A stretch of DNA of 64,000 nucleotides from a virus. How positions within the stretch are numbered: the stretch's first letter is position 1; every line of letters begins with the position of its first letter. Shown piece by piece: positions 12,504 through 31,538 of the stretch. Both the position numbers and the translations under genes were made by a program. Below the pieces are notes generated by a model. That model searched no databases. It was not told where the DNA came from and saw only the letters and a list, made by a program, of their open reading frames with translations. The DNA lies in the IMG/VR virus record IMGVR_UViG_3300042883_000668, positions 1 through 64,000 of that record; one strand, written 5' to 3'.

Positions 12504-13955
12504 CTAGCTAATGCTAGATGCATCTAAAATTAATTGAGCAGCATCTGATGGATCACGTAACATGATACCACATTCTGTCATTGCTTCAAATGTGTAACCA
12601 TCTACTGAACTTGCAGATGAACCATTTTTCTTAGGTCCATAAGGGCCATACATTCCTTCAATGTAAGTTGTTACCATCTCACGATCTTTAGAATATACTT
12701 TTTGGATATTTGGTTCTCCTTTGTTATAAGATTTAAAGTTTAAGAAAGTCGCTTTATAAGACTCTGCTGGCTTACCAGTTTGAGGGTGTAATAAACGATT
12801 TCTCATTGTATCATTATAAGGCTTATACTCTTTCAATGTAATTTTATCTCCATTCAAACCTGTATAAGTCATAAACTGACCATGTAATTCTAAGTTTTGT
12901 CCTTCACCTGCAATGAATTTACTATCAACTAAGTTGAAAGCAGATGCTGAACGCTTCATAGCTTGATCAAATAAGTTCATGAATTCACGACCACATAAAG
13001 CCACATATTCACGAGGACCATCTTCAGTACCATTGTATGCTAAATCTCCCATGAAATCACGGATAGTTTTTTCATTCAATGTAGTATAAAGACGTTTGTT
13101 ACCTGGAGCAATTTGACCTTCTAAACCAGCACCAGAATAAATTGTATTTCCTGAAGCACCTTTTAAGTCAGTTGTACCATTAGATTTAATGTTAGATTCA
13201 CCAAACATTAACATGATTTCAATTTCATCCATGAATTGCTTCCAAAATTCCCACTCAGCATATTTTACCCAAGTGTTAGTTTTTTCATTAGTTTCAGGAT
13301 TTAACATAGAGATAACCATAACACGGCTGTGAGCAGCACCAGTTACAGAATATTTCTTACGTAATGTAGTCATAAAGTTTTCTAACATCATTGGTGTAGC
13401 ATAGTGAGTTTCACCTGATGTACGAGAATGATCATGTTCTACAATGTTGTATTCTTTAGATACCTCTTTACCAACTACTAATAAAGTTGAAGGTACAGAT
13501 TTAGTGATATCTGCAGTAACTAATTGACATACTAAGATGTAATCAGCACCATCATAAATTGGTTCAGAAATTACACGAGCTTTATAATCTGGACTGTCAA
13601 ATAATAAAACGTCACCTTCTGTAAACCATTTTTCACCAACACCAATTTTAAAAGATGTAGCGTTAATACCTACTAAAGTTGCAGCATCAAATACTGAACG
13701 AGTAATAGAGATTGCTTTACGAGAGTCACCAATGATATTCCAACGGTATTGGATACCATCAATTTCTTTAGCTTTACCCATTCCACCTGTTAAGAAAGAA
13801 AGAGCATTTTTATAACCATTTTGTTTGTTATAAATACGAGTAATAACTTGGCTAGCAATAGCTGGCTCAGTTAAAAAGAATGTGGACAAATGAGAGTCTT
13901 GAGTAAGACCAGCATGCCAATTCATGTTTGTTATTTGTAATGGACTAATTTGCAT
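12504..13955 (-). CDS. Major capsid protein (crAss-like)
   Basis: 483 aa; strong codon bias; SGAGLEGQI and SSASSVDGY motifs; portal-scaffold-MCP order; followed by terminator. Confidence 0.85.
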   Translation of the reverse strand: MQISPLQITNMNWHAGLTQDSHLSTFFLTEPAIASQVITRIYNKQNGYKNALSFLTGGMGKAKEIDGIQYRWNIIGDSRKAISITRSVFDAATLVGINATSFKIGVGEKWFTEGDVLLFDSPDYKARVISEPIYDGADYILVCQLVTADITKSVPSTLLVVGKEVSKEYNIVEHDHSRTSGETHYATPMMLENFMTTLRKKYSVTGAAHSRVMVISMLNPETNEKTNTWVKYAEWEFWKQFMDEIEIMLMFGESNIKSNGTTDLKGASGNTIYSGAGLEGQIAPGNKRLYTTLNEKTIRDFMGDLAYNGTEDGPREYVALCGREFMNLFDQAMKRSASAFNLVDSKFIAGEGQNLELHGQFMTYTGLNGDKITLKEYKPYNDTMRNRLLHPQTGKPAESYKATFLNFKSYNKGEPNIQKVYSKDREMVTTYIEGMYGPYGPKKNGSSASSVDGYTFEAMTECGIMLRDPSDAAQLILDASSIS

Positions 13956-15134: not shown

Positions 15135-15166
15135 TAAATATAACTGTTTTGGTTATTGTTTGCAAA
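15135..15166 (-). promoter_or_regulatory. Bacteroidota-type promoter for scaffold/MCP operon
   Basis: TTTG-N20-TATATTTA. Confidence 0.65.
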
Positions 15167-16217: not shown

Positions 16218-16745
16218 TTATCCTTTTAATTCATGATCAAATAATCTCATTGCAATCTTATCTTCACCAAATGCTTCTAATTGATCAACTAAGTTTTGTA
16301 CTTTACCTAATTCTTCTTGTTGTTCAGTTAAGAATTTCATAGCTAACTGATATAACAAATGATTGCCATACTTCATAGCATGTGATGCTAACTCATTACA
16401 TTGTTGTGTAACCATTATCTCATGTGCATATGATTGTTTAATAACATCAGGTAAACCTGTAAATGTTTGAGGTGGTTCTTTTAATGCTGGAGTCTTAGGT
16501 GTAATACCCATATCTAATAAGAAAGACTTAGCCCAACCTGCGTGAACCATTTCTCCTTCTGCATCTTTTTCCCAAACTGCTGCTGCACCTAAATACCCAT
16601 GGTCATTTAACCACATTGACATTGCAGTGTAAAATCTAGAAGAATATTCTTCTTGTTCAATTCTAAAGTTTAATATGTCAATACATTCCTTACTTACAAA
16701 AGGATTTGTTTTTGCTGCTGGAGGTGTTAATTTTAAACTACTCAT
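16218..16745 (-). CDS. ftnA: Ferritin (non-haem, FtnA-like)
   Basis: EQEEYSSRFY, EGEMVHA, HEIMVT, FLTEQQEE ferroxidase-centre residues; 175 aa. Confidence 0.85.
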   Translation of the reverse strand: MSSLKLTPPAAKTNPFVSKECIDILNFRIEQEEYSSRFYTAMSMWLNDHGYLGAAAVWEKDAEGEMVHAGWAKSFLLDMGITPKTPALKEPPQTFTGLPDVIKQSYAHEIMVTQQCNELASHAMKYGNHLLYQLAMKFLTEQQEELGKVQNLVDQLEAFGEDKIAMRLFDHELKG

Positions 16746-17287
16746 TATTTTTTAGGTGTTTTAGGTTTATTTGGATTTTTTTGAGGTCCTCTAATACCTC
16801 TCATTTTTTGTTTTGTTTCTTCACTCATTTTTGTTCCAAGCATTCTTTTTCTACATGCTTCTTTATAATCTTTTCCAAATTTTATTCCTTTTGTTGCTTG
16901 ATTACCTTTATTTGCTAATCCTATTTTTCTTTTATGTTCTTCTGAACAAGGTTTTTTAATTTTACCTTTATTTCCAATAGATATTTTATTTTTATGTTCT
17001 TCAGATAATTTATAAGCAATTCTACCACCTCCACCTGGAGCAAGATTATAACCTATATTAGAATGTGTTGAATTATATAATTGAATATAATGTATTTCTA
17101 ATTCATCTGTTAGTTTTATATTAAAATTTCCTTCTGTAATTATTTCAAATTTAAAATTTTCTTTACCGTATTTTTTAACAGCTCTTTTAAAATATTTTCC
17201 ACCACCAATATAAGATTTAGATTTACCATTAAATTGCCCTATATAAATTTTATTATTTATAAGATTTGTAGTTTTATAAATTATCAT
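16745..17287 (-). CDS. GIY-YIG homing endonuclease with NUMOD3 repeats
   Basis: IIYKTTNLINNKIYIGQ, GYNL, SEEHKNKIS/SEEHKRKIG/SEETKQKM repeats. Confidence 0.9.
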   Translation of the reverse strand: MIIYKTTNLINNKIYIGQFNGKSKSYIGGGKYFKRAVKKYGKENFKFEIITEGNFNIKLTDELEIHYIQLYNSTHSNIGYNLAPGGGGRIAYKLSEEHKNKISIGNKGKIKKPCSEEHKRKIGLANKGNQATKGIKFGKDYKEACRKRMLGTKMSEETKQKMRGIRGPQKNPNKPKTPKK

Positions 17288-19845
17288 TTTTTAGGTTTAT
17301 TTTTAATTTTTAGTCGTTCAATTTCAAGTTTATTTTTCATTTCTTTTTCTTTAAGTTCAGCTTGACGCTTTTGAATAAGTTCTTGAGATTTGTTTTGCGT
17401 ACGAATAGCTTCAATTTTTTTATTTTCAAGCTCATTTTTGAGCTTCATTTCTTTATCTTTCAATGCAATTTGAGCTTCATGTTTAGATTTATCATTACCA
17501 ATCTTAGATTGTTCTAAGAACATTCTAGATGACATCTCCTGTTGTTTTATTGCATTAGCTGCAATCTCTGAAGGATCTGGTATACCATTATCATTAAGGT
17601 CAATATCTTGTTGTTTATTATATACAGCAATCTCAGCAACTTGTATTCTAGTTTCATTGTTTTGTTCAGCAATATATCTTTCTTGATCAAGTTTAAGATG
17701 TTCAAATTCAACTTGTTCAGCATGCATTTGTTGTTGCATTTGCTCAACCTGCATTTGATGTTCTTGTTGAGATTTTTGAGATTCAGCTTGACGTTTATAA
17801 AATTCTTCTTCTTTACGTTGTAATAATCTAACTATATCTCTAGGTGAATCATTCATCAATGTTTCAACTATTGCAGATAAATCTACTTTTTCAGATTGTA
17901 AAGCTACCTGAACTAATTGATCTAACTTAGCTTTTAATTCAAGATCTTTAGTATTGTTAGTTACAAATACACTAAATTCTGAATTTTCAAATTCATTTTC
18001 ATCTAGTCTTAATAACTCAATTGCCATATCATCTAAAACATACTGAGCAACTAATCCTTTTTTATAAGCAATCTTAGCTACTTCAATAACTGCAGTATAT
18101 GCTCTACGTTTAACTTCAGTATGAGCTTCATACAAATATTCAGTAATTAAAGAAGATTGATTAACAGATCTTTCTACATTACCAACTAATTCAGAGTTAT
18201 TAATAGCACCTAATCTTTGTGGAGTAACTCCAGATACAAATGCTACTTGTGCTTTGATATAATCTAGCATGTTAATATACTGCTGGATAGATTGACTAAG
18301 ACTTAAGTCTATTGCTTGGAACTGATTAAACTTATTAGCTAATTGTCCAGTAGCAGCACCTTTTTTTCCTTCTTCAAAACTATTAATAAAAGCAATATTC
18401 ATTTCTTTTAAATAGTATAACCATCTATCCATGTCAATACCATGACTTGCAGGTATTTGAGCTAAGTCCATTATAAACTTCTTACCTTGATCAGAAGCAA
18501 ATGCTATCTCTAATCTGTAAGATATAATATCATATAAATATTGATAAGGTTTTAACCTGTCAATTAAACTAACTGATTGAGAGTTAGTTGCTTCATATAT
18601 AAATCCTGTATAACCTAATCTACAGAAATAAGGATTATCTAATCTACGTCTTTGATTAGGTTTAGGTTTAATATCTGTAAAAATATCTAATCCTATTTTA
18701 ACACCTTCCCAAGCTTCATTAATCCAATACCATTCTACTTTAGCATCTGGAAAAGCTTCTTTAAATACTCTTGTACTAAATAACTCATCAACTATTTCTG
18801 ATTGTAGAGTTCCATCTTCATCAGTCCAAGTTAATTCACCAATCTTTTTCATTGATTTCCATTCAACTCTTGTAACTCTAATAGAATAGTTATTACTATT
18901 ATTTCCATTATAAGCATTAGTAGGAGTAATTCCTGCAAAAGCATTCTGTCCATTAACTACATCAAATTGAGGTTCAAATCCACCTGCAGTATTAAAAGAA
19001 CCAAAGGTTCCTCTTGTATAATTTTCTAATTTGTCAACATCATCTTTAGAAAGAATATCACCATATTCATCTAATATAGTATTGATAGCTAACATTCTTT
19101 CTTCAACTACTGCAATAGCATCATCAATAAAAGTTGTGTCACCATCTAAGATAACTGTTAAGTTAACAGGGTTAACTCTACGCATAGCTACTTCAGCATT
19201 CTCAATACCTACCCAATAAACTTCTTCTCCTGCAATTAATGCATCTTTCCAACCTTGAGAAAATAACAATCTTGTATTAAGTCTTTTCTTTAATACTTTA
19301 AGTATTTTGTTAGCTTTAGATTCAATTATATCTGAAGGAGTATGTTTTTCATGTTTAAGTATTTCTTCAGGTGGTGGCGGGGGATTTTCTGGATCAGCAT
19401 TAGGATCTATTTGATAAGCCAAACCTTCTTGTAAAGCTTGAAATATTTTTTGCTTAACTCCTGCTGTTTTACGATTAATATCTTCTGGAGATTCAGATAC
19501 TACAATATGATTATCTGGTCTTTTAGTTTCTTCACCTATTAATAATCTAATTGGTTCTGACACTATATCATAATGTTGAAACCTAGCAGAGAATGTACTA
19601 GAAGTATTAACTCCTAATGGATCACATATAGTTTCAATATCTTTATGGTTTACTTTACCATTGTATAAATCATAGTTAATTAACTTTCTAAATCTATCAG
19701 ATCTTAAGTTACTACCATTGGTATATCTATAGTTTGAATAATAATTAATACAAGACTTACCCCATTCTTTGTCTTTACTAGACATAGGTAATTTTTGTTG
19801 AGGTAAATTCTGACCACCTAGATTGGCATATATATCTTGACTCAT
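17284..19845 (-). CDS. Portal protein (crAss-like)
   Basis: 853 aa; LPQQKLP, WINEAWEG, SLIDRLKPYQYLY, GVTPQRLG; follows TerL. Confidence 0.9.
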   Translation of the reverse strand: MSQDIYANLGGQNLPQQKLPMSSKDKEWGKSCINYYSNYRYTNGSNLRSDRFRKLINYDLYNGKVNHKDIETICDPLGVNTSSTFSARFQHYDIVSEPIRLLIGEETKRPDNHIVVSESPEDINRKTAGVKQKIFQALQEGLAYQIDPNADPENPPPPPEEILKHEKHTPSDIIESKANKILKVLKKRLNTRLLFSQGWKDALIAGEEVYWVGIENAEVAMRRVNPVNLTVILDGDTTFIDDAIAVVEERMLAINTILDEYGDILSKDDVDKLENYTRGTFGSFNTAGGFEPQFDVVNGQNAFAGITPTNAYNGNNSNNYSIRVTRVEWKSMKKIGELTWTDEDGTLQSEIVDELFSTRVFKEAFPDAKVEWYWINEAWEGVKIGLDIFTDIKPKPNQRRRLDNPYFCRLGYTGFIYEATNSQSVSLIDRLKPYQYLYDIISYRLEIAFASDQGKKFIMDLAQIPASHGIDMDRWLYYLKEMNIAFINSFEEGKKGAATGQLANKFNQFQAIDLSLSQSIQQYINMLDYIKAQVAFVSGVTPQRLGAINNSELVGNVERSVNQSSLITEYLYEAHTEVKRRAYTAVIEVAKIAYKKGLVAQYVLDDMAIELLRLDENEFENSEFSVFVTNNTKDLELKAKLDQLVQVALQSEKVDLSAIVETLMNDSPRDIVRLLQRKEEEFYKRQAESQKSQQEHQMQVEQMQQQMHAEQVEFEHLKLDQERYIAEQNNETRIQVAEIAVYNKQQDIDLNDNGIPDPSEIAANAIKQQEMSSRMFLEQSKIGNDKSKHEAQIALKDKEMKLKNELENKKIEAIRTQNKSQELIQKRQAELKEKEMKNKLEIERLKIKNKPKK

Positions 19846-21941
19846 TAGTTTTTGCTTGGATTAAATTGGGATTGAGAATTCCTCCTGTTAAATATAAGGT
19901 TTTTTTGGTAAAGTCTTTCTAAGAAATCACCAGACGTTGTTTTCATATCTAATAGCTCTTCTACGTGTATTCTGTGTAGTTCGTATGTTTGCAGTACGCA
20001 TAGCATAACTGCAATAACTCTATCAGTGTTAATATCTCTGTCATATGCTATTAATTCTTTAAGTAAAGGTATTGATTTAATTGTTTGAAATCTACATACT
20101 TTAGTTCCTTCTGTTTCACCACTAACTTCTTCATATAACCACTTTTTAAGATATAACTCACATTGATCTTTAATACCACTTGCTCCATTAGTACCTCTAT
20201 TCATATGAATACCATAACCTCTTTGTACTCTAGAATCTTTAACCATATCTCTAATAATACCAGGTTGTTCACACATATATTGTAAAGCATTCTTTTGTTC
20301 AAAGTATACTTTTAAACCTTTTAACTGGTTCTCATACAATACTTTAGCATTATAATACATACATAACTTTCTACAGTTTTCATAAAATTGTTCTGCAGTA
20401 TCTGGTCTAGAAGTATATTCTGCAACTATAATATCATGAGTTCTATCTGCTCTGTAAAATCTTTTATACACAAAGAATGATCCTAATGAACCAGACTCTG
20501 ACTTATCTTGATCATAAGGGTCACATCCTGCAATGTATAAATAACTAGGTATTTCTCCATTATCTTGTTTTTCAGGATGTTCCCATATTACTGCACAACT
20601 ATCTGTTGTAAAACTTTGACCAGACTTAGGATCTTTTCTTAATGGGAAATCAGTTATATAAATCAACTCATCATTAGGTCGCCATTTAATTTCTCCTTTA
20701 TCAAAGAATAAATCACCTTTTTGAGCTTGACCTCTAAGACTAGGTGTATTTTCTAAATGACCTAACCACTCTAACATTTCTGGTGAACCAAATACATTAC
20801 CTTTATTTCTAAGGAAAGCTTCTTTCCAGTTTAAAGGAAATTGAGTAGTTTCATTATGAATAGCTTTAGGATCTAAACCATTACGCTTACTAATTCTATT
20901 AAATTCAATATCATCTTGTGCAGCTTCATAGTTAGAGTTACCATTTTCATCTGTCATTGGTTGTTTATACCATTTAGAATTAGGATTAAGACACTTACCT
21001 AACCTACCTTTTGTAGCTGAACTAAAGAATCCTATTTTAGAATTAGGATTGAATGGATCTTCAAAAGCTAGCATATTATATTTTTCAGGATTAGTAAACA
21101 TCTCATAAAAATACTTACTACCAGAATCCATATCTCCAGAAGATCCAAATACTAATGCTACTCCTGTATAAGTACTACCATCTTTAATAAGTGGTTCAGT
21201 ATATCCATAAGTATCTGTAATATTGTTAAATACACCTGCCTCATCTAAGATTAACCAGGAAGCACTTAAACCAACTGCTGCAGTAGGATTATCTTTAAAG
21301 GATATTGATCTAACTTCTGAGTTAAATCCTTTCCAAACCTTAACACCATTTACAGTAGCTTGGTATCTAGCTTTAATAAAATCCTTTAAATCAGGATTAC
21401 GTTGTTTTCTAAACTCTGTATTAGTATTAATAAAGTTAGAGTTATCAACTACCATGTTCATTGTATTCTGACTAAATGAACTAAAGAATGCCCCAATTAC
21501 AGCTTTACTGTCTGGGTAGAAATAAAACTCATGAGTACATATTGCTGCTGCTTTGTAAGACCAACCTTGACGTCTACCCTTTACAGCAACTAAAGATTTT
21601 TGATTTATTCTACAATATTCTATCATGTGAAAGAATTCATAATCTAAATCTATAAACCTAGGAAAAATTTTAGATTTCTTTCCAGTCTTTTCATTAAGAC
21701 CTAATATAGGACAAAAGTTTAAATAAAAGAAATGTTGTCCTGTAATTGTTTGACCACAAGAATTAGTAAATCCTTCTATACATATATCTCTAACTTCTTG
21801 CCAGAAGTCTAAGTATTCTATAGTTCCGGGAATAGCACTAGTGTACATTCCTGTTTTATTATACTGTTCAGCTAAGTAACTAAACTCTTTAGTATTCTTA
21901 AATAAGTCTACACAAGTTATATATGGGTTGTCTGCTAACAT
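19845..21941 (-). CDS. terL: Terminase large subunit
   Basis: KGRRQGWSY Walker A-like, LILDEAG Walker B, AGCDPYD and NTDRV nuclease motifs. Confidence 0.92.
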   Translation of the reverse strand: MLADNPYITCVDLFKNTKEFSYLAEQYNKTGMYTSAIPGTIEYLDFWQEVRDICIEGFTNSCGQTITGQHFFYLNFCPILGLNEKTGKKSKIFPRFIDLDYEFFHMIEYCRINQKSLVAVKGRRQGWSYKAAAICTHEFYFYPDSKAVIGAFFSSFSQNTMNMVVDNSNFINTNTEFRKQRNPDLKDFIKARYQATVNGVKVWKGFNSEVRSISFKDNPTAAVGLSASWLILDEAGVFNNITDTYGYTEPLIKDGSTYTGVALVFGSSGDMDSGSKYFYEMFTNPEKYNMLAFEDPFNPNSKIGFFSSATKGRLGKCLNPNSKWYKQPMTDENGNSNYEAAQDDIEFNRISKRNGLDPKAIHNETTQFPLNWKEAFLRNKGNVFGSPEMLEWLGHLENTPSLRGQAQKGDLFFDKGEIKWRPNDELIYITDFPLRKDPKSGQSFTTDSCAVIWEHPEKQDNGEIPSYLYIAGCDPYDQDKSESGSLGSFFVYKRFYRADRTHDIIVAEYTSRPDTAEQFYENCRKLCMYYNAKVLYENQLKGLKVYFEQKNALQYMCEQPGIIRDMVKDSRVQRGYGIHMNRGTNGASGIKDQCELYLKKWLYEEVSGETEGTKVCRFQTIKSIPLLKELIAYDRDINTDRVIAVMLCVLQTYELHRIHVEELLDMKTTSGDFLERLYQKNLIFNRRNSQSQFNPSKN

Positions 21942-22177
21942 ATAGTTCCAGGAATAGGATTTATAGGGTTAGTGTACCACATAGGTGTTGGATTAAAATC
22001 AAAAGGTTTAATTGTACCAAAATCTTGTGGTGGTATATAAGGATAATTTGGAGTAATTTTAGTAAATACTAATTTAAGATGATCTTTAATTATTTGAGTT
22101 TGTTTTTCATCAATAGATTTAGGATCTGCTGTTTCTATAAATCCTTGTAACCAGTATGTAAATTGTTCTGCTGTCAT
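21935..22177 (-). CDS. Hypothetical protein
   Basis: 80 aa; MTAEQFTYWLQGF start typical of a small phage family. Confidence 0.6.
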   Translation of the reverse strand: MTAEQFTYWLQGFIETADPKSIDEKQTQIIKDHLKLVFTKITPNYPYIPPQDFGTIKPFDFNPTPMWYTNPINPIPGTIC

Positions 22178-22192
22178 ATTTTTATATTTTTA

Positions 22193-22711
22193 TTATCCTT
22201 CAAAAAGCCCAAGTGTTGCCTGACCACGAACAGTGTCACCAGATGCTTGCTCCTTTTGGCAGTTATTGAGAGCACTCTGTACAGCTTCCTGCATCTTAGG
22301 CATATCTATAATTGCTTTCTGTATTTTAGTAATACTATCTTCATTGTACTCTGCAGTCATAAAGAATTCTTCCATCTTATTAATAGATTCTTGAACAGCT
22401 CTAAATAACTTCATTGCTGGAGTAGTATTAATCTTTTCATACATTTTAACACATTCTTCTAATTCTTTAGTTACCTTAAACTTATCATCTTTAATGATAT
22501 GACTTAAGATTAACTTAGATCTATCTGTATTACTGTGTTGAAAAAAAGGTGATTTAAATGAAGCATAGTACCAAGTATATTTAATCATATTAAATGCTTG
22601 AGTCTTATCTTTAGATTTATCTTTCTCCCAAATAGATTTAAATGGTTCTATAACCAAACACTCTGGAGCTACTATAATCTTACTATCTATTAAATCTATT
22701 ATTTTAATCAT
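22193..22711 (-). CDS. crAss-like conserved protein (terminase small subunit candidate)
   Basis: 172 aa helical, DKSKDK motif, C-terminal VRG; just upstream of terL. Confidence 0.5.
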   Translation of the reverse strand: MIKIIDLIDSKIIVAPECLVIEPFKSIWEKDKSKDKTQAFNMIKYTWYYASFKSPFFQHSNTDRSKLILSHIIKDDKFKVTKELEECVKMYEKINTTPAMKLFRAVQESINKMEEFFMTAEYNEDSITKIQKAIIDMPKMQEAVQSALNNCQKEQASGDTVRGQATLGLFEG

Positions 22712-23112
22712 TTAATTTTAACTCTTTTAAATTTAGAATATGCTTGCTCAAAGAACTCAAAGTTTTCTGATATAAAATAACCATACATATAAGCATATGG
22801 TTCATTAGGTTGTTTTCTTTGATAGTATATATCTCTAGATTCTAATACTTCCTGTATTAAATGCATTGTTTCATGAGCAATAGTGGCCCAGTATTCTTTC
22901 TTATCTGAAGTATAACCTACTACTAAATAATAGACTTGTCTATCCATTATAGGTGAATTATCTGAATTACAGAATCCTCCCATATTAGATAAATCTTCAT
23001 CTTCTGTAATACCATAAGTATCAGTAAGATGCTTTACTGCTTCATTCATACTATTAGTAACTTGAATACTAACTAAACAATCATATATAGGAATTATTAA
23101 TTCTTTATTCAT
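22708..23112 (-). CDS. Zincin-like metallopeptidase-motif protein
   Basis: TIAHETMH (HExxH) and NEPYAY. Confidence 0.65.
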   Translation of the reverse strand: MNKELIIPIYDCLVSIQVTNSMNEAVKHLTDTYGITEDEDLSNMGGFCNSDNSPIMDRQVYYLVVGYTSDKKEYWATIAHETMHLIQEVLESRDIYYQRKQPNEPYAYMYGYFISENFEFFEQAYSKFKRVKIK

Positions 23113-23378
23113 TTTCCTAATCCTTTAATTACAATTGGTGTAAAATACTTATCTCTCAATTCTTTGTAAGGCATGTTAATTTTATAATATTCTGAATCAT
23201 ATTTAACAGTAGTAAATTTTTTGATAGTAGTACCCCTACTATCAATATGTTCTTCTATCTGCATAGACTCAACTACAAATAACTTTTTTTGAAATACTCT
23301 AAGAGGTGCATATCTAGCAATAGATCTACCTGTTTCACGTACAGGATATTGATTTATAACCTCTAGTTCTATTACCAT
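23109..23378 (-). CDS. Hypothetical protein
   Basis: 89 aa coupled ORF. Confidence 0.55.
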   Translation of the reverse strand: MVIELEVINQYPVRETGRSIARYAPLRVFQKKLFVVESMQIEEHIDSRGTTIKKFTTVKYDSEYYKINMPYKELRDKYFTPIVIKGLGK

Positions 23379-23575
23379 TTTCCCTCAGGACATTTAGAGT
23401 ATTCAGATCTAGTCTTAGCAATTAATGGACAACCACAAGCATCACAAGTATTATTTATATTTTTATCACAAGAACTACAAATAGTAGCTCTGTCTAATGC
23501 CATTTTTTCTATCTCTGGTTTTTCCCAAATAACATTTTTCCAGCCATTTAAGATTTCTTGTAATTTACTCATCAT
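23372..23575 (-). CDS. Small zinc-finger protein
   Basis: RxxICxxC...CxxCGC...K...CPxGKW. Confidence 0.7.
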   Translation of the reverse strand: MMSKLQEILNGWKNVIWEKPEIEKMALDRATICSSCDKNINNTCDACGCPLIAKTRSEYSKCPEGKW

Positions 23576-23798
23576 TTTTTAATTTTAAGCGTTTAGTATA
23601 ATCAGTGTTGTACATTGTAGGTCTAAACTTACCTAGGTAAATTAGTTGAATAACTTTACCCTCTCTGTTAGACATAGTATCTCTTATAACCCTAAATTGT
23701 GAGTCACAAATTCTTTCAAGTTCCATCTTAGACAAGTCAAACTCACTCTTAATTTCATCCAATACTTCTTCATATATATTACTTTTAGTTGAGTTCAT
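23565..23798 (-). CDS. IHF/HU-like DNA-binding protein
   Basis: ELERICDSQFRVIRDTM...IQLIYLGKF resembles HU/IHF fold motif. Confidence 0.6.
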   Translation of the reverse strand: MNSTKSNIYEEVLDEIKSEFDLSKMELERICDSQFRVIRDTMSNREGKVIQLIYLGKFRPTMYNTDYTKRLKLKNDE

Positions 23799-24118
23799 TA
23801 TTCAAAACTTAAATTAACGGAATCATGTTTTAAAATATGCAATATCCAAGGATTAACTTTAAGTGTTAATCTATCTACTTGTTGTAATACTTTCTTAGTA
23901 ACTAGTTTCTTAATATAATTATTAAAATTAAACTTATCCATATTTAAAGTCATACGAACATCAGTTCTAGTGTCCTTATTAATAATAGATATTTGCTTAT
24001 CAGCAATAACAACTAATATATCAATCTCTTTCTCAGTTAAATTACCCATAACAGGATTTAACATTCTAATGATATATTCAGTTTTTTTAGATACTGGTAG
24101 TTTAAGTATATATTCCAT
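23798..24118 (-). CDS. Winged-helix DNA-binding protein
   Basis: LTEKEIDIL...FNNYIKKLVTKKVL...VNP pattern. Confidence 0.55.
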   Translation of the reverse strand: MEYILKLPVSKKTEYIIRMLNPVMGNLTEKEIDILVVIADKQISIINKDTRTDVRMTLNMDKFNFNNYIKKLVTKKVLQQVDRLTLKVNPWILHILKHDSVNLSFE

Positions 24119-24122
24119 ACTA

Positions 24123-24154
24123 CAAATATAACTGATTTGATTATAATAACCAAA
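24123..24154 (-). promoter_or_regulatory. Bacteroidota consensus promoter, probably leaderless transcript
   Basis: TTTG-N20-TATATTTG, 4 nt before ATG at 24118. Confidence 0.75.
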
Positions 24155-24169
24155 TAAATTATATAACTA

Positions 24170-24535
24170 ACTTAGTTATCTACAAGACACAATATTCCCC
24201 TTCTAGATTTTACTCTTCTTGATGGATTAATTATAAACTTATATCTATCTGTCTTTAACCGTTCCTAGTAACTAGGCCACTGCTTACTTTAATCCTGTTA
24301 ATTCAGGGGGATACTTCATACCTCTTGTAGCAGCTATAGAATTTCACTTATAACCTTTTTTGTACCTATCGGAGAAACCTCTGTTCACTATCATTATATG
24401 CATTTAAATATAAAACCCTGATATTCAGGTAAATTATATGTCATTACATATAGAAGTTACTTATACTATCCAACTTCTAACCAGGTGTTAACTTATTAGG
24501 TATTCCCTGGTGACTAACTGTTTAAGTTAGAGTAC
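24170..24535 (-). ncRNA. Candidate large structured non-coding RNA
   Basis: ORF-free; own promoter; many local hairpins plus long-range pairings (24180-24187 with 24323-24330; 24193-24201 with 24305-24313). Confidence 0.6.
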
Positions 24536-24538
24536 ACT

Positions 24539-24570
24539 TAAATATACACTATTTTTAGACAATATGCAAA
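24539..24570 (-). promoter_or_regulatory. Promoter upstream of ncRNA candidate
   Basis: TTTG-N20-TATATTTA. Confidence 0.6.
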
Positions 24571-24580
24571 TTTATTTTAC

Positions 24581-24793
24581 TTATTCTTCAGTTATAGGGG
24601 TAAGCCCTGTAAGTAAGTAAAACTTATTAATCTTTTCAGCCATAATTAACTTATCATTAATCTGATCCATATCTTCATAATCTAGTTTATCATTATAGTG
24701 TTTTTTAGTTACACCCATTTTAAGGTATACTGATCCATCAGGTAAAATACCTTTTACTTGGGAGTCATTAAAATTCTTTGACTTTGTTCTCAT
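24581..24793 (-). CDS. Hypothetical protein
   Basis: 70 aa ORF. Confidence 0.5.
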   Translation of the reverse strand: MRTKSKNFNDSQVKGILPDGSVYLKMGVTKKHYNDKLDYEDMDQINDKLIMAEKINKFYLLTGLTPITEE

Positions 24794-24896
24794 TATTATT
24801 ATTTGTTAATTCCCAGGAAGAGTTATCCCCTAAAATAACCTCAATAGGTTTATCTTCCCAAAACTGTTGTTGTTCATATTCTGATGTACTTGCCAT
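24768..24896 (-). CDS. Small hypothetical protein (42 aa, not in ORF track)
   Basis: MASTSEYEQQQFWEDKPIEVILGDNSSWELTNNNNENKVKEF; TAATG coupling with upstream gene. Confidence 0.45.
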   Translation of the reverse strand: MASTSEYEQQQFWEDKPIEVILGDNSSWELTNNNNENKVKEF

Positions 24897-25108
24897 TACC
24901 AACTAAATTGTTCTTTAGGTCCATTAATAAAATACTCTTGTAATATCTTGTTTCTAGCAATAATATAATCTGATCCTGAACCTTCAACTCTATTAGCAGG
25001 TTTAATTATATCAATATATTCAGCAGTTGTAAGTACATGACTTACATCATTTACAACAATAGTAATATGATCTACATCTGGTTCTCTATATTTAATCTCT
25101 GGTTTCAT
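24896..25108 (-). CDS. Hypothetical protein, first leftward gene
   Basis: 70 aa; promoter directly upstream. Confidence 0.55.
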   Translation of the reverse strand: MKPEIKYREPDVDHITIVVNDVSHVLTTAEYIDIIKPANRVEGSGSDYIIARNKILQEYFINGPKEQFSW

Positions 25109-25112
25109 GTTC

Positions 25113-25144
25113 TAAAGTTACTTATTAACTATCTAATTACCAAA
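25113..25144 (-). promoter_or_regulatory. Promoter, probably leaderless transcript
   Basis: TTTG-N20-TAACTTTA, 4 nt before ATG at 25108. Confidence 0.6.
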
Positions 25145-25203
25145 TAAGTATGGTAAATTAAATGACATAGAATATAGCTTTTTAATAAATTTTTTGTAAA
25201 ATA

Positions 25204-25267
25204 TTTTTTAAAAAATTTTGTGTAGTCGAGGATTTGAAAAAATAGTTTTTTAAAAATTTTTGTGTAG
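25204..25267. repeat. 22-nt imperfect direct repeat at strand switch
   Basis: TTTTTTAAAAAATTTTGTGTAG (25204) and TTTTTTAAAAATTTTTGTGTAG (25246). Confidence 0.7.
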
Positions 25268-25348
25268 GTTAAGATGGGGGACACCCCATGAAAGACTACC
25301 CCTACTAAACTTTGAGAGAAAATGTTTTCTGCTCATAAAATTATCACA

Positions 25349-25633
25349 ATGAAAATCTTATTTAAAGTTTCCGCAATTAATGTTCGTGTTAACACTAAAG
25401 ATAACACTGAATTCACTTCTATCTCTTTATTCAAAGAAGTAAAGAAAGAGATTAATGGTTCTGTCTCTGTTGGTAGAAAATATGCAGAGCATGCATGTGT
25501 TAGTACTACACTAAAAGTTAATGATACATTTACTTTTGACTCAGATGTGTATGATATGGTTAAGCAAGCTTACACTGATGATGAAGGTGTTGAGAAGTTT
25601 GCTAACAAGATTTACTTAAGAGCTGACGCATAG
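25349..25633 (+). CDS. Hypothetical protein, first rightward gene (OB-fold-like possible)
   Basis: Likely start MKILFK; beta-rich; followed by hairpins. Confidence 0.55.
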   Translation: MKILFKVSAINVRVNTKDNTEFTSISLFKEVKKEINGSVSVGRKYAEHACVSTTLKVNDTFTFDSDVYDMVKQAYTDDEGVEKFANKIYLRADA

Positions 25634-25923
25634 CTCGGGGACCTTTGGTCCTTATTTCATAAAGTTAAACCCAGTTAAATGTAATTGGGTTTAATTTTAT
25701 TGAATATAAATAAATTATTTGTTGTAAATGCTTGTAAAGTGTTGGTATCAGTGGGTTACACCTATCACAATATTCAATTCACCTCTTTCTCAATTAACCT
25801 CAATATAATAAACCCTATTATATACATAGCTTAAATAAACTCTTTATGTTCCTTTCATAGAGTATAAACAATGATAAATACAAGGAGTGCATGGTAGCTC
25901 AAACTCAAAAAAATTATAAAATT

Positions 25924-26148
25924 ATGAAAATAGCAGCAATTTATTCAAGTCCATATAATAATCAACACAAAAGATTAGAATTACTAGAAGTTAATCACTT
26001 ACCTAAAAATTCTGTTAATCTTGTAGCTGTTGAAAGATTAGATGGTACAAAAGAAACAGGAGGATTACCTTATTGTATGTATAATAATGAAATTTATCAT
26101 TATAAAAATGGTCAATATTATCATGAAAAATACATGGAAAAATTCTAA
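25924..26148 (+). CDS. Hypothetical protein
   Basis: ORF track; likely start MKIAA after A-rich leader. Confidence 0.5.
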   Translation: MKIAAIYSSPYNNQHKRLELLEVNHLPKNSVNLVAVERLDGTKETGGLPYCMYNNEIYHYKNGQYYHEKYMEKF

Positions 26149-28000: not shown

Positions 28001-28074
28001 GTATGATATAGCTCGTTGTGTATGAGCACCTGATATTAATCAGGAGGTAGTGGGTTCAATTCCCACTATCATAC
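28001..28074 (+). tRNA. tRNA-like element with 6-nt anticodon loop (identity undetermined)
   Basis: Acceptor GTATGATA/TATCATAC, D-stem GCTC/GAGC, AC stem CCTGA/TCAGG with loop TATTAA, T-arm GTGGG-TTCAATT-CCCAC. Confidence 0.7.
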
Positions 28075-28119
28075 CTTATTTGTATAAATAGTTTATACAA
28101 TAATTTAAAAATAATAAAA

Positions 28120-31467: not shown

Positions 31468-31538
31468 TAGTCATATAGCTTAATGTAAAGCCCTAATTTG
31501 GATTAGGAAGATGCATGGTTCAAATCCTGCTGTGACTA
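31468..31538 (+). tRNA. tRNA-like element with 6-nt anticodon loop (Pro-TGG or Gln-TTG derived?)
   Basis: Acceptor TAGTCATA/TGTGACTA, D-stem GCTT/AAGC, AC stem CCTAA/TTAGG with loop TTTGGA, T-arm GCA(T)GG-TTCAAAT-CCTGC. Confidence 0.6.

What the first reader, a model, noticed from the sequence alone, without database searches (positions are those of the whole stretch)
24170..24535. Candidate ~360-nt multi-domain ncRNA with its own promoter at the head of the packaging operon
Seen (minus strand): an ORF-free block more GC-rich than typical spacers, between two promoters. The 5' domain has hairpins CTAAC/GTTAG, CCAGG/CCTGG, TAGAAGTT/AACTTCTA, TATGT/ACATA and CCTGA/TCAGG. The 3' domain is closed by long-range CTACAAGA/TCTTGTAG and TATCCCCCT/AGGGGAATA helices enclosing CCTG/CAGG and CCTAG/CTAGG hairpins. 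It has no group I/II core and no tRNA-like ends. The next gene has its own promoter, so this is unlikely to be just a 5' UTR. Inference: an independently transcribed structured RNA of unknown class, possibly packaging-associated (pRNA analogue), a protein sponge or an anti-defence RNA. Best candidate for a novel system here.
Basis: partly seen in the sequence, partly recalled or inferred. Interest (0 to 1): 0.8.

Follow-up and report, generated by a model that had tools for sequence, protein, structure and literature searches.

The report
New structured RNA in lake phages
A freshwater crAss-like phage and its relatives carry a gene for a roughly 340-base, intricately folded RNA of a kind not described before, placed just ahead of the DNA-packaging genes; what the RNA does is still unknown.

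Summary
The ORF-free block is real and is a gene for a conserved structured RNA. It is read from the minus strand, from about 24533 to at least 24190. No Rfam 15 family matches it or two diverged relatives.

Comparative evidence is strong. Over 22 relatives, 98.3% of cells in 35 pairs (7 helices) are paired, against 33-46% when partners are slid. 24 pairs change on both sides. The 116-nt core has 40 distinct sequences; 20 of 25 pairs are compensated. G.U cells outnumber A.C cells 46 to 0, which fixes the strand.

Its two long-range helices are wrong: those strands pair elsewhere. A Bacteroidota-type promoter precedes the RNA. No terminator follows it.

Four metatranscriptome runs hold short contigs inside the RNA. 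This is weak support, because the runs were picked by conserved words.

More distant relatives carry two other structured RNAs at the same position, one with a clear terminator. Endonuclease genes sit in or beside the RNA.

My reading: a late-expressed RNA that works as a folded RNA and probably acts in trans. A leader role in cis is the main rival. Its function is unknown. Parts of it may already be listed in the supplements of PMC10690425, which I could not open.

The parts
24540..24570 (-). Promoter P1 (TTTG-N20-TATATTT, Bacteroidota type); the -7 box ends at 24539
   Evidence: Pattern match. The hexamer columns are invariant in 17 relatives. It is the same class as the promoter ahead of the capsid genes at 15136-15166.
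24190..24533 (-). The structured RNA. The 5' end is inferred from the promoter; the 3' end is not defined and lies at or beyond the GAAGGGG motif
   Evidence: Conserved in terL relatives. Covariation shown. Strand set by G.U cells. RNA-library contigs lie at 24191-24507.
24368..24530 (-). 5' domain. P1 hairpin 24530-24514. P2 24510-24481. Conserved UUAGAAGUUGG. P3 24474-24469 pairing with 24373-24368, which closes a variable arm. In this clade the arm holds a roughly 45-nt insertion with a terminator-like hairpin at 24429-24417
   Evidence: P2 and P3: 99-100% of cells paired, and 4 and 3 pairs changed on both sides. P1: a hairpin is present in 33 of 36 sequences, with different sequences. Insertion seen; terminator-like site.
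24229..24345 (-). Core domain. P4 24340-24336/24248-24244. P5 24333-24327/24287-24280. P6 24323-24308. P7 24307-24294 with loop AAUUAA. P8 24276-24264. Conserved junction GGGYUMAAKAC
   Evidence: Covariance model R1 scores 121 bits here; it is the only copy in the window. Pair counts.
24229..24355 (-). P9, a long-range helix: 24355-24347 pairs with 24237-24229. It stacks outside P4 across an internal loop
   Evidence: RNAalifold on A1. Clade-specific helices at the same place have unrelated sequences. I did not count this helix with the pair-counting tool.
24197..24203 (-). GAAGGGG, a near-invariant 3' motif with no settled partner
   Evidence: AGGGG is invariant in 22 sequences. It is not a ribosome-binding site: 64 phage genes show no such motif upstream. 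Candidate partners are listed.
24163..24179 (.). Palindrome ATAAC-N7-GTTAT just upstream of P2. Probably a DNA operator and not part of the RNA
   Evidence: It travels with P2, not with the RNA, where an ORF is inserted between them (L019). Similar palindromes precede P2 in loci that carry other RNA types. A second copy lies inside the capsid promoter.
24124..24154 (-). Promoter P2 of the next gene; the ATG lies 5 nt after it
23798..24118 (-). Downstream gene, 106 aa, winged-helix-like; a constant neighbour of the RNA
   Evidence: A homologue lies downstream in 45 of 45 RNA-bearing loci. The family profile matches PDB 3r0a_A, a putative transcriptional regulator, at E = 4.5e-4.
24581..24793 (-). 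Upstream gene, 70 aa, no known family
   Evidence: Homologues were found upstream in 26 of the 32 other loci compared. No Pfam or PHROG match.

Best explanation
The block is a gene for a new family of phage structured RNA, about 325-370 nt long.

Transcription (inferred). Host RNA polymerase starts at promoter P1. P1 is of the same TTTG-N20-TATATTT class as the promoter ahead of the capsid genes, so the RNA is probably made together with late genes.

Fold (shown). There are two parts:
- A 5' domain: hairpin P1, hairpin P2 with a large conserved loop, and helix P3 closing a variable arm.
- A long stem, P9-P4, that carries a junction of P5 (itself bearing P6 and P7) and P8.
Nearly invariant bases are concentrated in junctions and loops: UUAGAAGUUGG, the GAAG loop of P6, the AAUUAA loop of P7, GGGYUMAAKAC, and GAAGGGG at the 3' end.

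Mode of action (inferred). Selection acts on the folded RNA, not on DNA or a peptide. I think it most likely works as a discrete folded RNA that binds a conserved partner, either a phage or host protein or part of the host machinery. It would act in trans, either released from or riding on the 5' end of the P1 transcript. The identity of the partner is unknown.
For: Conservation:
- The non-coding DNA is kept in relatives whose flanking proteins have diverged. Core stretches are 88% identical in loci where the neighbouring 106-aa protein is 38% identical and terL about 67%.

Structure:
- 35 pairs in 7 helices are 98.3% paired, against 33-46% when partners are slid. 24 pairs change on both sides, against 15.9 in shuffles (0 of 500). 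Further pair types number 52 against 43.3 (0 of 500).
- The core has 40 distinct sequences; 20 of 25 pairs are compensated and 97.7% of cells are paired.
- P1, P9 and a GNRA-capped hairpin keep their place with unrelated sequences.
- In helices, 46 cells are G.U and 0 are A.C.

Not a peptide:
- The 11-codon ORF in the core loses its ATG, or gains TAG, in L050, L054 and L066.

Promoter:
- P1 is conserved.

Expression:
- All 4 metatranscriptome runs laid (from 3 studies) hold 151-243-nt contigs lying inside 24191-24507.

Stand-alone unit:
- The same slot in more distant relatives holds other structured RNAs. One has its own promoter and a 13-bp stem followed by a U-run terminator.
- An endonuclease VII gene sits in the variable arm in L040, with both halves of the RNA kept.
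- There is one copy per genome and no cellular homologue.
Against: - No terminator follows the RNA in this family.
- In L019, L022, L071 and L027 an ORF without a promoter starts 24-34 nt after GAAGGGG. There the RNA is at least also a 5' leader.
- The RNA-library contigs were found through conserved 31-mers. They cannot show transcript ends, strand or level, and DNA carry-over is not excluded.
- The 3' motif can pair with two pyrimidine stretches inside covarying helices, which would suit a switch.
- No partner has been identified and no experiment exists.
- The single-sequence fold is not significant.
Confidence: 0.5

Rival explanations
1. It is a regulatory leader acting in cis. The folded RNA would be the 5' untranslated part of the P1 transcript and would control the downstream block (winged-helix gene, HU-like gene and onward to terL). 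It could do this by sensing a ligand or protein, like a riboswitch with alternative pairing of the GAAGGGG tail. Or it could make RNA polymerase resistant to termination along the 25-kb late operon, as the put and EAR leaders do.
For: - No terminator lies between the RNA and the next genes.
- Promoter-less ORFs follow the RNA directly in 4 relatives.
- Conservation is concentrated in junctions, as in aptamers.
- AGGGG can always pair with CYYYU at the P6/P7 boundary. Only C/U changes occur there, and the divergent allele in L016 has GCCCU with AGGGC.
- The tail resembles the 5' strand of P3 and can pair with its 3' strand over 7-10 bp in some clades.
Against: - In most loci a strong promoter, P2, lies between the RNA and the next gene, so most of that gene's mRNA would lack the leader.
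- I found no expression platform, meaning no terminator or start-site hairpin.
- Pairing of the tail with the 3' strand of P3 is broken in L030 and L066, where P3 itself is compensated.
- L036 and L038 differ in the tail without matching changes.
- Another RNA type in the same slot ends in its own terminator.
- At about 340 nt it is far larger than the put or EAR leaders (sizes recalled, not checked here).
Confidence: 0.3
2. It is an RNA part of the virion assembly or DNA-packaging machine, working like the phi29 pRNA. This is a special case of the trans-acting reading.
For: - Late-type promoter.
- Position at the head of the block that ends in terL and portal.
- Strict single copy.
Against: - The pRNA model did not match.
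- This phage has a classical large terminase, which is not known to need an RNA (established knowledge).
- The P7 loop palindrome AAUU is lost in L050, L059, L061 and L070, so a conserved loop-loop ring through it is unlikely.
- Nearness to terL is not a property of the pRNA gene itself (recalled).
Confidence: 0.07
3. It is a self-processing ribozyme or intron-like element. The complex conserved core would be a catalytic centre, and the endonuclease gene in a peripheral arm would echo group I introns.
For: - A many-helix fold with invariant junction bases.
- A GNRA-capped hairpin in several clades.
- An endonuclease VII ORF inside the variable arm in L040.
Against: - No Rfam ribozyme or intron model matched up to E = 10, in three diverged members.
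- The flanks are separate genes with their own stop, start and promoters, not exons.
- Upstream genes differ between loci.
Confidence: 0.06
4. It is a signal at the DNA level (pac site, origin or operator array), or a chance fold in a spacer.
For: - A real DNA palindrome lies at the 3' edge.
- The single-sequence fold is not significant.
Against: - Compensatory changes occur in at least 7 helices.
- G.U cells outnumber A.C cells 46 to 0, which only an RNA of the minus strand explains.
- The palindrome is separable from the RNA.
Confidence: 0.02

Closest known systems
GOLLD, ROOL and OLE ('ornate' large bacterial and phage RNAs; PMC12286853, seen as a search listing and abstract only)
   Same: - A large, many-helix RNA with strong covariation and unknown biochemical function.
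- Associated with phages (recalled for GOLLD and ROOL).
- Invariant bases sit in junctions.
   Different: - No sequence or structure match to their Rfam models.
- About 340 nt, against roughly 580-800 nt (sizes recalled).
- The host group is Bacteroidota-type phages from lakes.
- Oligomer formation was not tested.
phi29 pRNA (packaging RNA)
   Same: - A phage-encoded structured RNA.
- The only known precedent for an RNA in a DNA-packaging motor.
- Here the gene lies upstream of the packaging genes.
   Different: - No model match.
- About twice the size.
- This phage has a TerL-type terminase.
- I found no covarying loop-loop pair.
Riboswitch and leader RNAs, including the HK022 put and EAR antitermination leaders
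   Same: - It lies downstream of a promoter and upstream of an operon.
- The conservation pattern resembles an aptamer.
- Alternative pairing of the 3' motif is possible.
   Different: - No expression platform was found.
- A second promoter intervenes in most loci.
- It is much larger than the put or EAR leaders (recalled).
- No Rfam match.
Candidate structured RNAs mined from IMG/VR (PMC10690425; passages read)
   Same: - Same data source and the same kind of evidence: intergenic conservation plus covariation.
- Pieces of this RNA may be among the 8495 'DNAVirus_X' motifs.
   Different: - Those motifs are 29-151 nt long and are not characterised one by one.
- The text I read does not mention crAss; 'terminase' occurs once, in a passage that was not shown.
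- The supplements were closed, so overlap could not be checked.

Membership tests
Any Rfam 15 family (4227 models) | Covariance-model match at the gathering score, or at least a consistent weak match across members | tested here: not met
   In the window only two tRNA hits appear, both elsewhere. With E up to 10, the window RNA, L036 and L061 give only snoRNA, lncRNA or sRNA noise of 19 bits or less, with no family shared between them.
phi29-type pRNA | Match to the pRNA model | tested here: not met
   No pRNA hit.
phi29-type pRNA | Two loops with covarying intermolecular complementarity that build a ring | tested here: inconclusive
   The column-pair scan found no extra covarying stack beyond the helices. 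The P7 loop palindrome is not conserved. Variable loops were poorly aligned.
phi29-type pRNA | Binds the portal and is needed for packaging | not testable with these tools
   This needs purified procapsids.
Group I or II intron | Conserved catalytic core, and flanking exons of one interrupted gene | tested here: not met
   No intron model matched. The upstream ORF ends in a stop before P1, and the downstream ORF has its own promoter and ATG. Upstream genes differ between loci.
Riboswitch | Conserved aptamer with variable helices and invariant junction bases | tested here: met
   29 invariant columns of the 116-nt core, mostly unpaired, beside helices that covary. This pattern is not specific to riboswitches.
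Riboswitch | Expression platform (terminator or start-site hairpin) joined to the regulated gene | tested here: not met
   The only terminator-like site lies inside a clade-specific insertion. P2 separates the RNA from the next gene in most of the 33 loci checked.
Riboswitch | Ligand binding | not testable with these tools
   This needs in-line probing or ITC.
Stand-alone bacterial sRNA gene | Own promoter | tested here: met
   P1 is conserved. Promoter activity itself was not measured.
Stand-alone bacterial sRNA gene | Own intrinsic terminator, or a defined 3' end | tested here: not met
   None was found in this family. The type C RNA in the same slot of other phages does have one.
tRNA, tmRNA or tRNA-like | Cloverleaf or tmRNA found by ARAGORN or Rfam | tested here: not met
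   ARAGORN finds one gene in the window, at 28002-28075, and none in this block.

The most novel reading that the evidence does not exclude
This lineage of lake crAss-like phages may keep a dedicated 'RNA slot' ahead of its packaging genes. Interchangeable, unrelated large structured RNAs (at least three classes) would fill it and serve one RNA-based late function. That function could be an RNA subunit of an assembly or packaging complex, or a decoy aimed at a conserved host factor or defence system. The RNA studied here would then be the first member of a new functional class of phage RNA.
Probability: 0.15. Interest if true: 0.9.

Novelty: categorically new. Interest (0 to 1): 0.72.

Why it matters
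Large RNAs with many covarying helices and invariant junctions are rare. They have repeatedly turned out to be ribozymes, riboswitches or cores of RNA-protein machines.

- This one is widespread in lakes: 14 DNA runs from lake or freshwater samples hold 43% or more of the sampled words.
- It is under stronger selection than its neighbouring proteins.
- It sits at a fixed place ahead of the packaging genes.
- In sister lineages other structured RNAs replace it at the same place.

Together this makes a concrete question testable: do these phages need an RNA for a late step of infection?

The family also gives a ready alignment and a covariance model for structure work.

Tried and rejected
1. Coding under another genetic code. 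All six frames hold all three stop codons. Rejected.

2. Micro-ORF MKYPPELTGLK in the core. It is broken in L050, L054 and L066. Rejected.

3. GAAGGGG followed by AUG or GUG as a ribosome-binding site plus mini-ORF. 64 genes of the window show A-rich upstream regions and no such motif. AUG is replaced by AUA or AUU in several members. Rejected as a translation signal.

4. The palindrome as the RNA's terminator. It has no G+C-rich stem. It travels with P2 when an ORF is inserted (L019). It is missing in L076. Similar palindromes precede P2 next to other RNA types. I read it as a DNA operator. The U.G-compatible variants leave a small doubt.

5. Partners of the 3' tail. Two sites recur: the P6/P7 boundary and the 3' strand of P3. 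Neither is proven. An AUGUC/GAC pairing seen by eye is not conserved.

6. Column-pair scan for pseudoknots. It gave only the known helices and 3-bp noise.

7. F/H duplex against shuffles. This was not significant for single A/U-rich sequences. P9 therefore rests on its constant position with changing sequence, and I did not count it with the pair tool.

8. DNA search of GenBank phages and a tblastn search with the 106-aa protein. No match. The terL protein reaches only 35% identity or less to gut crAss-like phages, so no cultured relative is at hand.

9. Prokaryote genomes. One pattern hit, inside a 1750-aa ORF, scoring 15.9 bits with broken helices. This is a chance hit.

10. R1 with filters off on 8 loci that have the winged-helix gene but no RNA hit. 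All 28 matches scored 15.5 bits or less, and none lay upstream of that gene.

11. RNA-library contigs. They cover the RNA, and in one run the next gene. The other parts of the 5 kb laid had no cover, which proves nothing. Two pieces of 37 and 48 nt belong to contigs that are otherwise unlike the window, and I ignore them.

12. Literature. Four searches found no paper on a structured RNA of crAss-like phages. For PMC10690425 I read passages only; its supplements are closed. For PMC12286853 and PMC9226505 I saw the listing and abstract only.

Full report
**Setting.** The window is part of an 85,961-bp virus record that is 96% complete by CheckV.
- Minus-strand genes run from about 25100 down to 1. 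They include the large terminase at 19845-21941 (phrog_6681, E = 5e-118), the portal at 17284-19845 and the major head protein at 12504-13955.
- terL is at most 35% identical to terL of gut crAss-like phages. Flavobacterium and Cellulophaga phages are also among the 165 matching records. This is therefore a distant, uncultured crAss-like lineage.
- 14 DNA runs labelled lake water or freshwater hold 43-100% of the sampled words of 23800-24800.
- Upstream regions of 64 genes are A-rich and lack a Shine-Dalgarno motif. Promoters read TTTG-N20-TATATTT. Both are habits of Bacteroidota (established knowledge, not tested here).

**The observation.**
- The gap 24119-24580 has no ORF of 30 aa or more on either strand. 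It has stops of all three kinds in all six frames.
- GC is 0.31-0.335, slightly above most neighbouring windows.
- Two promoter-like sites flank it, at 24540-24570 and 24124-24154. A third of the same spacing precedes the capsid genes at 15136-15166.
- The minimum-energy fold of 24170-24535(-) is no better than shuffles (z = -0.83). The sequence alone proves nothing.

**Relatives.**
- A terL search of IMG/VR confirmed 107 of 108 candidate stretches; 80 loci were kept.
- blastn of the 462-nt gap hit 46 of the 80 loci. It was nearly full length (75-99% identity) in loci with terL at 74-100% identity.
- In loci with terL at 53-67%, three islands remained: P1, a core, and P2 with its palindrome.
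- A core motif pattern found 30 stretches in IMG/VR and 18 in JGI metagenome contigs. All 18 of the latter scored 100-128 bits with my core model.
- The one stretch found in 185,579 prokaryote genomes lies inside a 1750-aa ORF and scores 15.9 bits with broken helices. This is a chance hit.
- The window has one copy.

**It is RNA, on the minus strand.**
- On 22 full-length members (alignment A2), the RNAalifold structure has 35 pairs in 7 helices.
- 98.3% of 749 cells are paired, against 33-46% when partners are slid by 1-3 columns and 76% in shuffles.
- 24 pairs change on both sides (15.9 in shuffles, 0 of 500). Further pair types number 52 against 43.3 (0 of 500). The structure was derived from the same alignment, which favours it somewhat. 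The slid controls and the type counts are still far apart.
- For the core domain I wrote the structure by hand on a 27-sequence alignment (A3). 97.0% of cells are paired, and 17 of 25 pairs change on both sides.
- I built model R1 from it. Aligning all 51 matches gave 40 distinct sequences, 97.7% paired cells and 20 of 25 pairs changed on both sides. That alignment is fitted to the model.
- In A2's helices, 46 cells are G.U and none is A.C. This is expected only if the minus strand is the RNA.
- The short ORF in the core (11 codons) loses its ATG or gains TAG in three clades.

**Architecture** (window coordinates, minus strand).
- Inferred start near 24533.
- P1 hairpin 24530-24514. A hairpin is found at this place in 33 of 36 members, with unrelated sequences.
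- P2 24510-24481, with a conserved large loop.
- The string UUAGAAGUUGG. Its last bases (24474-24469) form P3 with 24373-24368. P3 closes a variable arm.
- In the window's own clade (5 of 36 members) the arm carries about 45 extra nt with two hairpins. One of them looks like a terminator (24429-24417).
- P9 (24355-24347 with 24237-24229), an internal loop, and P4 (24340-24336 with 24248-24244) form a long stem.
- That stem bears P5 (24333-24327 with 24287-24280). P5 in turn bears P6 (24323-24308, loop with GAAG) and P7 (24307-24294, loop AAUUAA).
- Then come P8 (24276-24264) and the conserved junction GGGYUMAAKAC.
- Distant clades add a 7-bp hairpin capped by GUAA or GUGA after P9.
- The RNA ends with a small variable hairpin and the near-invariant GAAGGGG (24203-24197).
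- L046 and L047 keep P4, P6 and the junction but lack P5, P7 and P8. They score 23 bits.

- Its hairpins CTAAC/GTTAG, CCAGG/CCTGG, CCTG/CAGG and CCTAG/CTAGG are right.
- Its closing helices CTACAAGA/TCTTGTAG and TATCCCCCT/AGGGGAATA are not what evolution keeps.
- Even so, AGGGG can always pair with CYYYU at the P6/P7 boundary. Only C/U changes occur there. The divergent allele of L016 and L027 has GCCCU with AGGGC.
- The tail also resembles the 5' strand of P3 and can pair with its 3' strand, over up to 10 bp in L074. That pairing is broken in L030 and L066, where P3 itself is compensated.
- I leave an alternative fold open and do not claim it.

**Context.**
- Gene order is constant: a 70-aa gene, P1, the RNA, a palindrome with P2, a 106-aa gene, a 77-aa gene with a weak HU-like match, a 67-aa gene, and on to terL.
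- A homologue of the 106-aa protein lies downstream in 45 of 45 RNA-bearing loci.
- The palindrome ATAAC-N7-GTTAT (24163-24179) stays with P2 when an ORF is inserted (L019). Similar palindromes precede P2 beside other RNA types. A second copy lies inside the capsid promoter. The window has 7 such sites against 2.4 expected. I read it as a DNA operator, perhaps for the 106-aa protein (inference).

**Is it a separate transcript?**

For:
- Its own conserved promoter.
- P2 follows in most of the 33 loci checked.
- More distant relatives that have the 106-aa gene but no R1 match (8 loci, filters off) hold other ORF-free sequences of 300-420 nt in the same slot.
- Type B (L073, L078) keeps 9 pairs through changes on both sides. 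Type C (L072, L045, L043) keeps 11.
- Type C has its own promoter and ends in a 13-bp stem followed by UUUAUUGUU.
- Neither type matches Rfam.
- L055 has only a 120-nt gap.

Against:
- This family has no terminator.
- In L019, L022, L071 and L027 an ORF starts 24-34 nt after GAAGGGG with no promoter. There P1 transcripts must continue.

**Mobile genes.**
- In L040 an endonuclease VII gene (PF02945, 78 bits) sits inside the variable arm, with both halves of the RNA kept.
- The ORFs directly after the RNA in L071 and L027 are DUF559 endonuclease-like.
- L016 and L027 have terL 86% and 80% identical to the window's, yet carry a strongly divergent allele of the RNA (52 and 47 bits). The gene is therefore exchanged between close relatives.

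**Expression.**
- Six RNA runs held 5-13% of the words of 23800-24800. I laid four of them on 21000-26000.
- Each has a contig of 151-243 nt inside the RNA: X15 at 24252-24494; X16 at 24256-24381 plus 24464-24507; X17 at 24191-24322; X19 at 24238-24379. The X16 contig carries a different variable arm, so it comes from a relative.
- Only X19 also has a contig in the next gene (23835-23986).
- X16 and X17 are from one study.
- These are assembled contigs chosen through conserved words. They show that the sequence is present in RNA libraries. They do not show ends, strand, level or freedom from DNA.

**Reading.**
- Shown: a conserved, folded RNA of the minus strand, with a conserved promoter, one copy per genome, specific to this phage lineage and new to Rfam.
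- Inferred: late expression, from the promoter class.
- Inferred: action as a folded RNA with a conserved partner. The grounds are junction-centred conservation, three GAAG-containing conserved single strands, stronger conservation than its neighbours, tolerance of a gene in a peripheral arm, and replacement by other RNAs, one of which is self-contained.
- I put a trans-acting RNA at about 0.5. A packaging or assembly role (0.07) is listed separately as a special case of that reading. A leader acting in cis is at 0.3, a ribozyme or intron-like element at 0.06, and a DNA signal or chance at 0.02.

**Novelty.**
- No Rfam match for three diverged members.
- No paper was found in four searches.
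- One survey mined IMG/VR 3.0 for 8495 motifs of 29-151 nt (PMC10690425, passages read).

Noticed in passing
L073:1500-1830 and L078:1905-2200: A different conserved ORF-free RNA ('type B', about 300 nt) lies in the same slot, between a promoter and the winged-helix gene. Nine pairs are kept through changes on both sides between the two copies. It ends in a stem followed by a pyrimidine run. No Rfam match.
   Followed up: partly
L045:1455-1800, L043:705-1050, L072:3160-3480: A third RNA ('type C', about 320 nt) lies in the same slot. It has its own promoter and a 13-bp stem plus UUUAUUGUU terminator. Eleven pairs are compensated between L045 and L072. No Rfam match.
   Followed up: partly
L040:127-525: An endonuclease VII gene (PF02945, 78 bits) is inserted inside the variable arm of the RNA, between the two strands of P3. 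Both halves of the RNA are conserved.
   Followed up: partly
L071:2117-2551 and L027:1516-2067: DUF559 endonuclease-like ORFs start 24-34 nt after the RNA's GAAGGGG motif, with no promoter of their own.
   Followed up: partly
L016:1450-1790 and L027:1170-1510: Phages whose terL is 86% and 80% identical to the window's carry a strongly divergent allele of the RNA (52 and 47 bits). P7 is rebuilt (CUGG/CCAG) and the 3' motif is GAAGGGC. This points to exchange of the RNA gene between close relatives.
   Followed up: partly
window 24163-24179 and 15140-15156: ATAAC-N7-GTTAT palindromes lie just upstream of P2 and inside the promoter ahead of the capsid genes. The window has 7 such sites against 2.4 expected. 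They may be operators for the 106-aa winged-helix-like protein.
   Followed up: partly
L019:2632-2952, L022, L066:3437-3814, L016, L076: A family of 107-126-aa proteins (N-terminus M-E/K-I/V-S/T-K-E-F, then ADSKVRSK) is inserted between the RNA and the winged-helix gene in some relatives. No Pfam match for the two members scanned (L019, L066).
   Followed up: no
window 28002-28075 and 31469-31538: Two tRNA-like genes match the Rfam tRNA model (46-47 bits). ARAGORN calls only the first, with an undetermined anticodon ('tRNA-???').
   Followed up: no
window 16745-17287: A homing-endonuclease-like gene (phrog_314, with a weaker match to a GIY-YIG homing-endonuclease family) lies directly after the portal gene.
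   Followed up: no
window 24118-24154: P2 ends 5 nt before the ATG of the 106-aa gene, so its mRNA is probably leaderless or nearly so.
   Followed up: no
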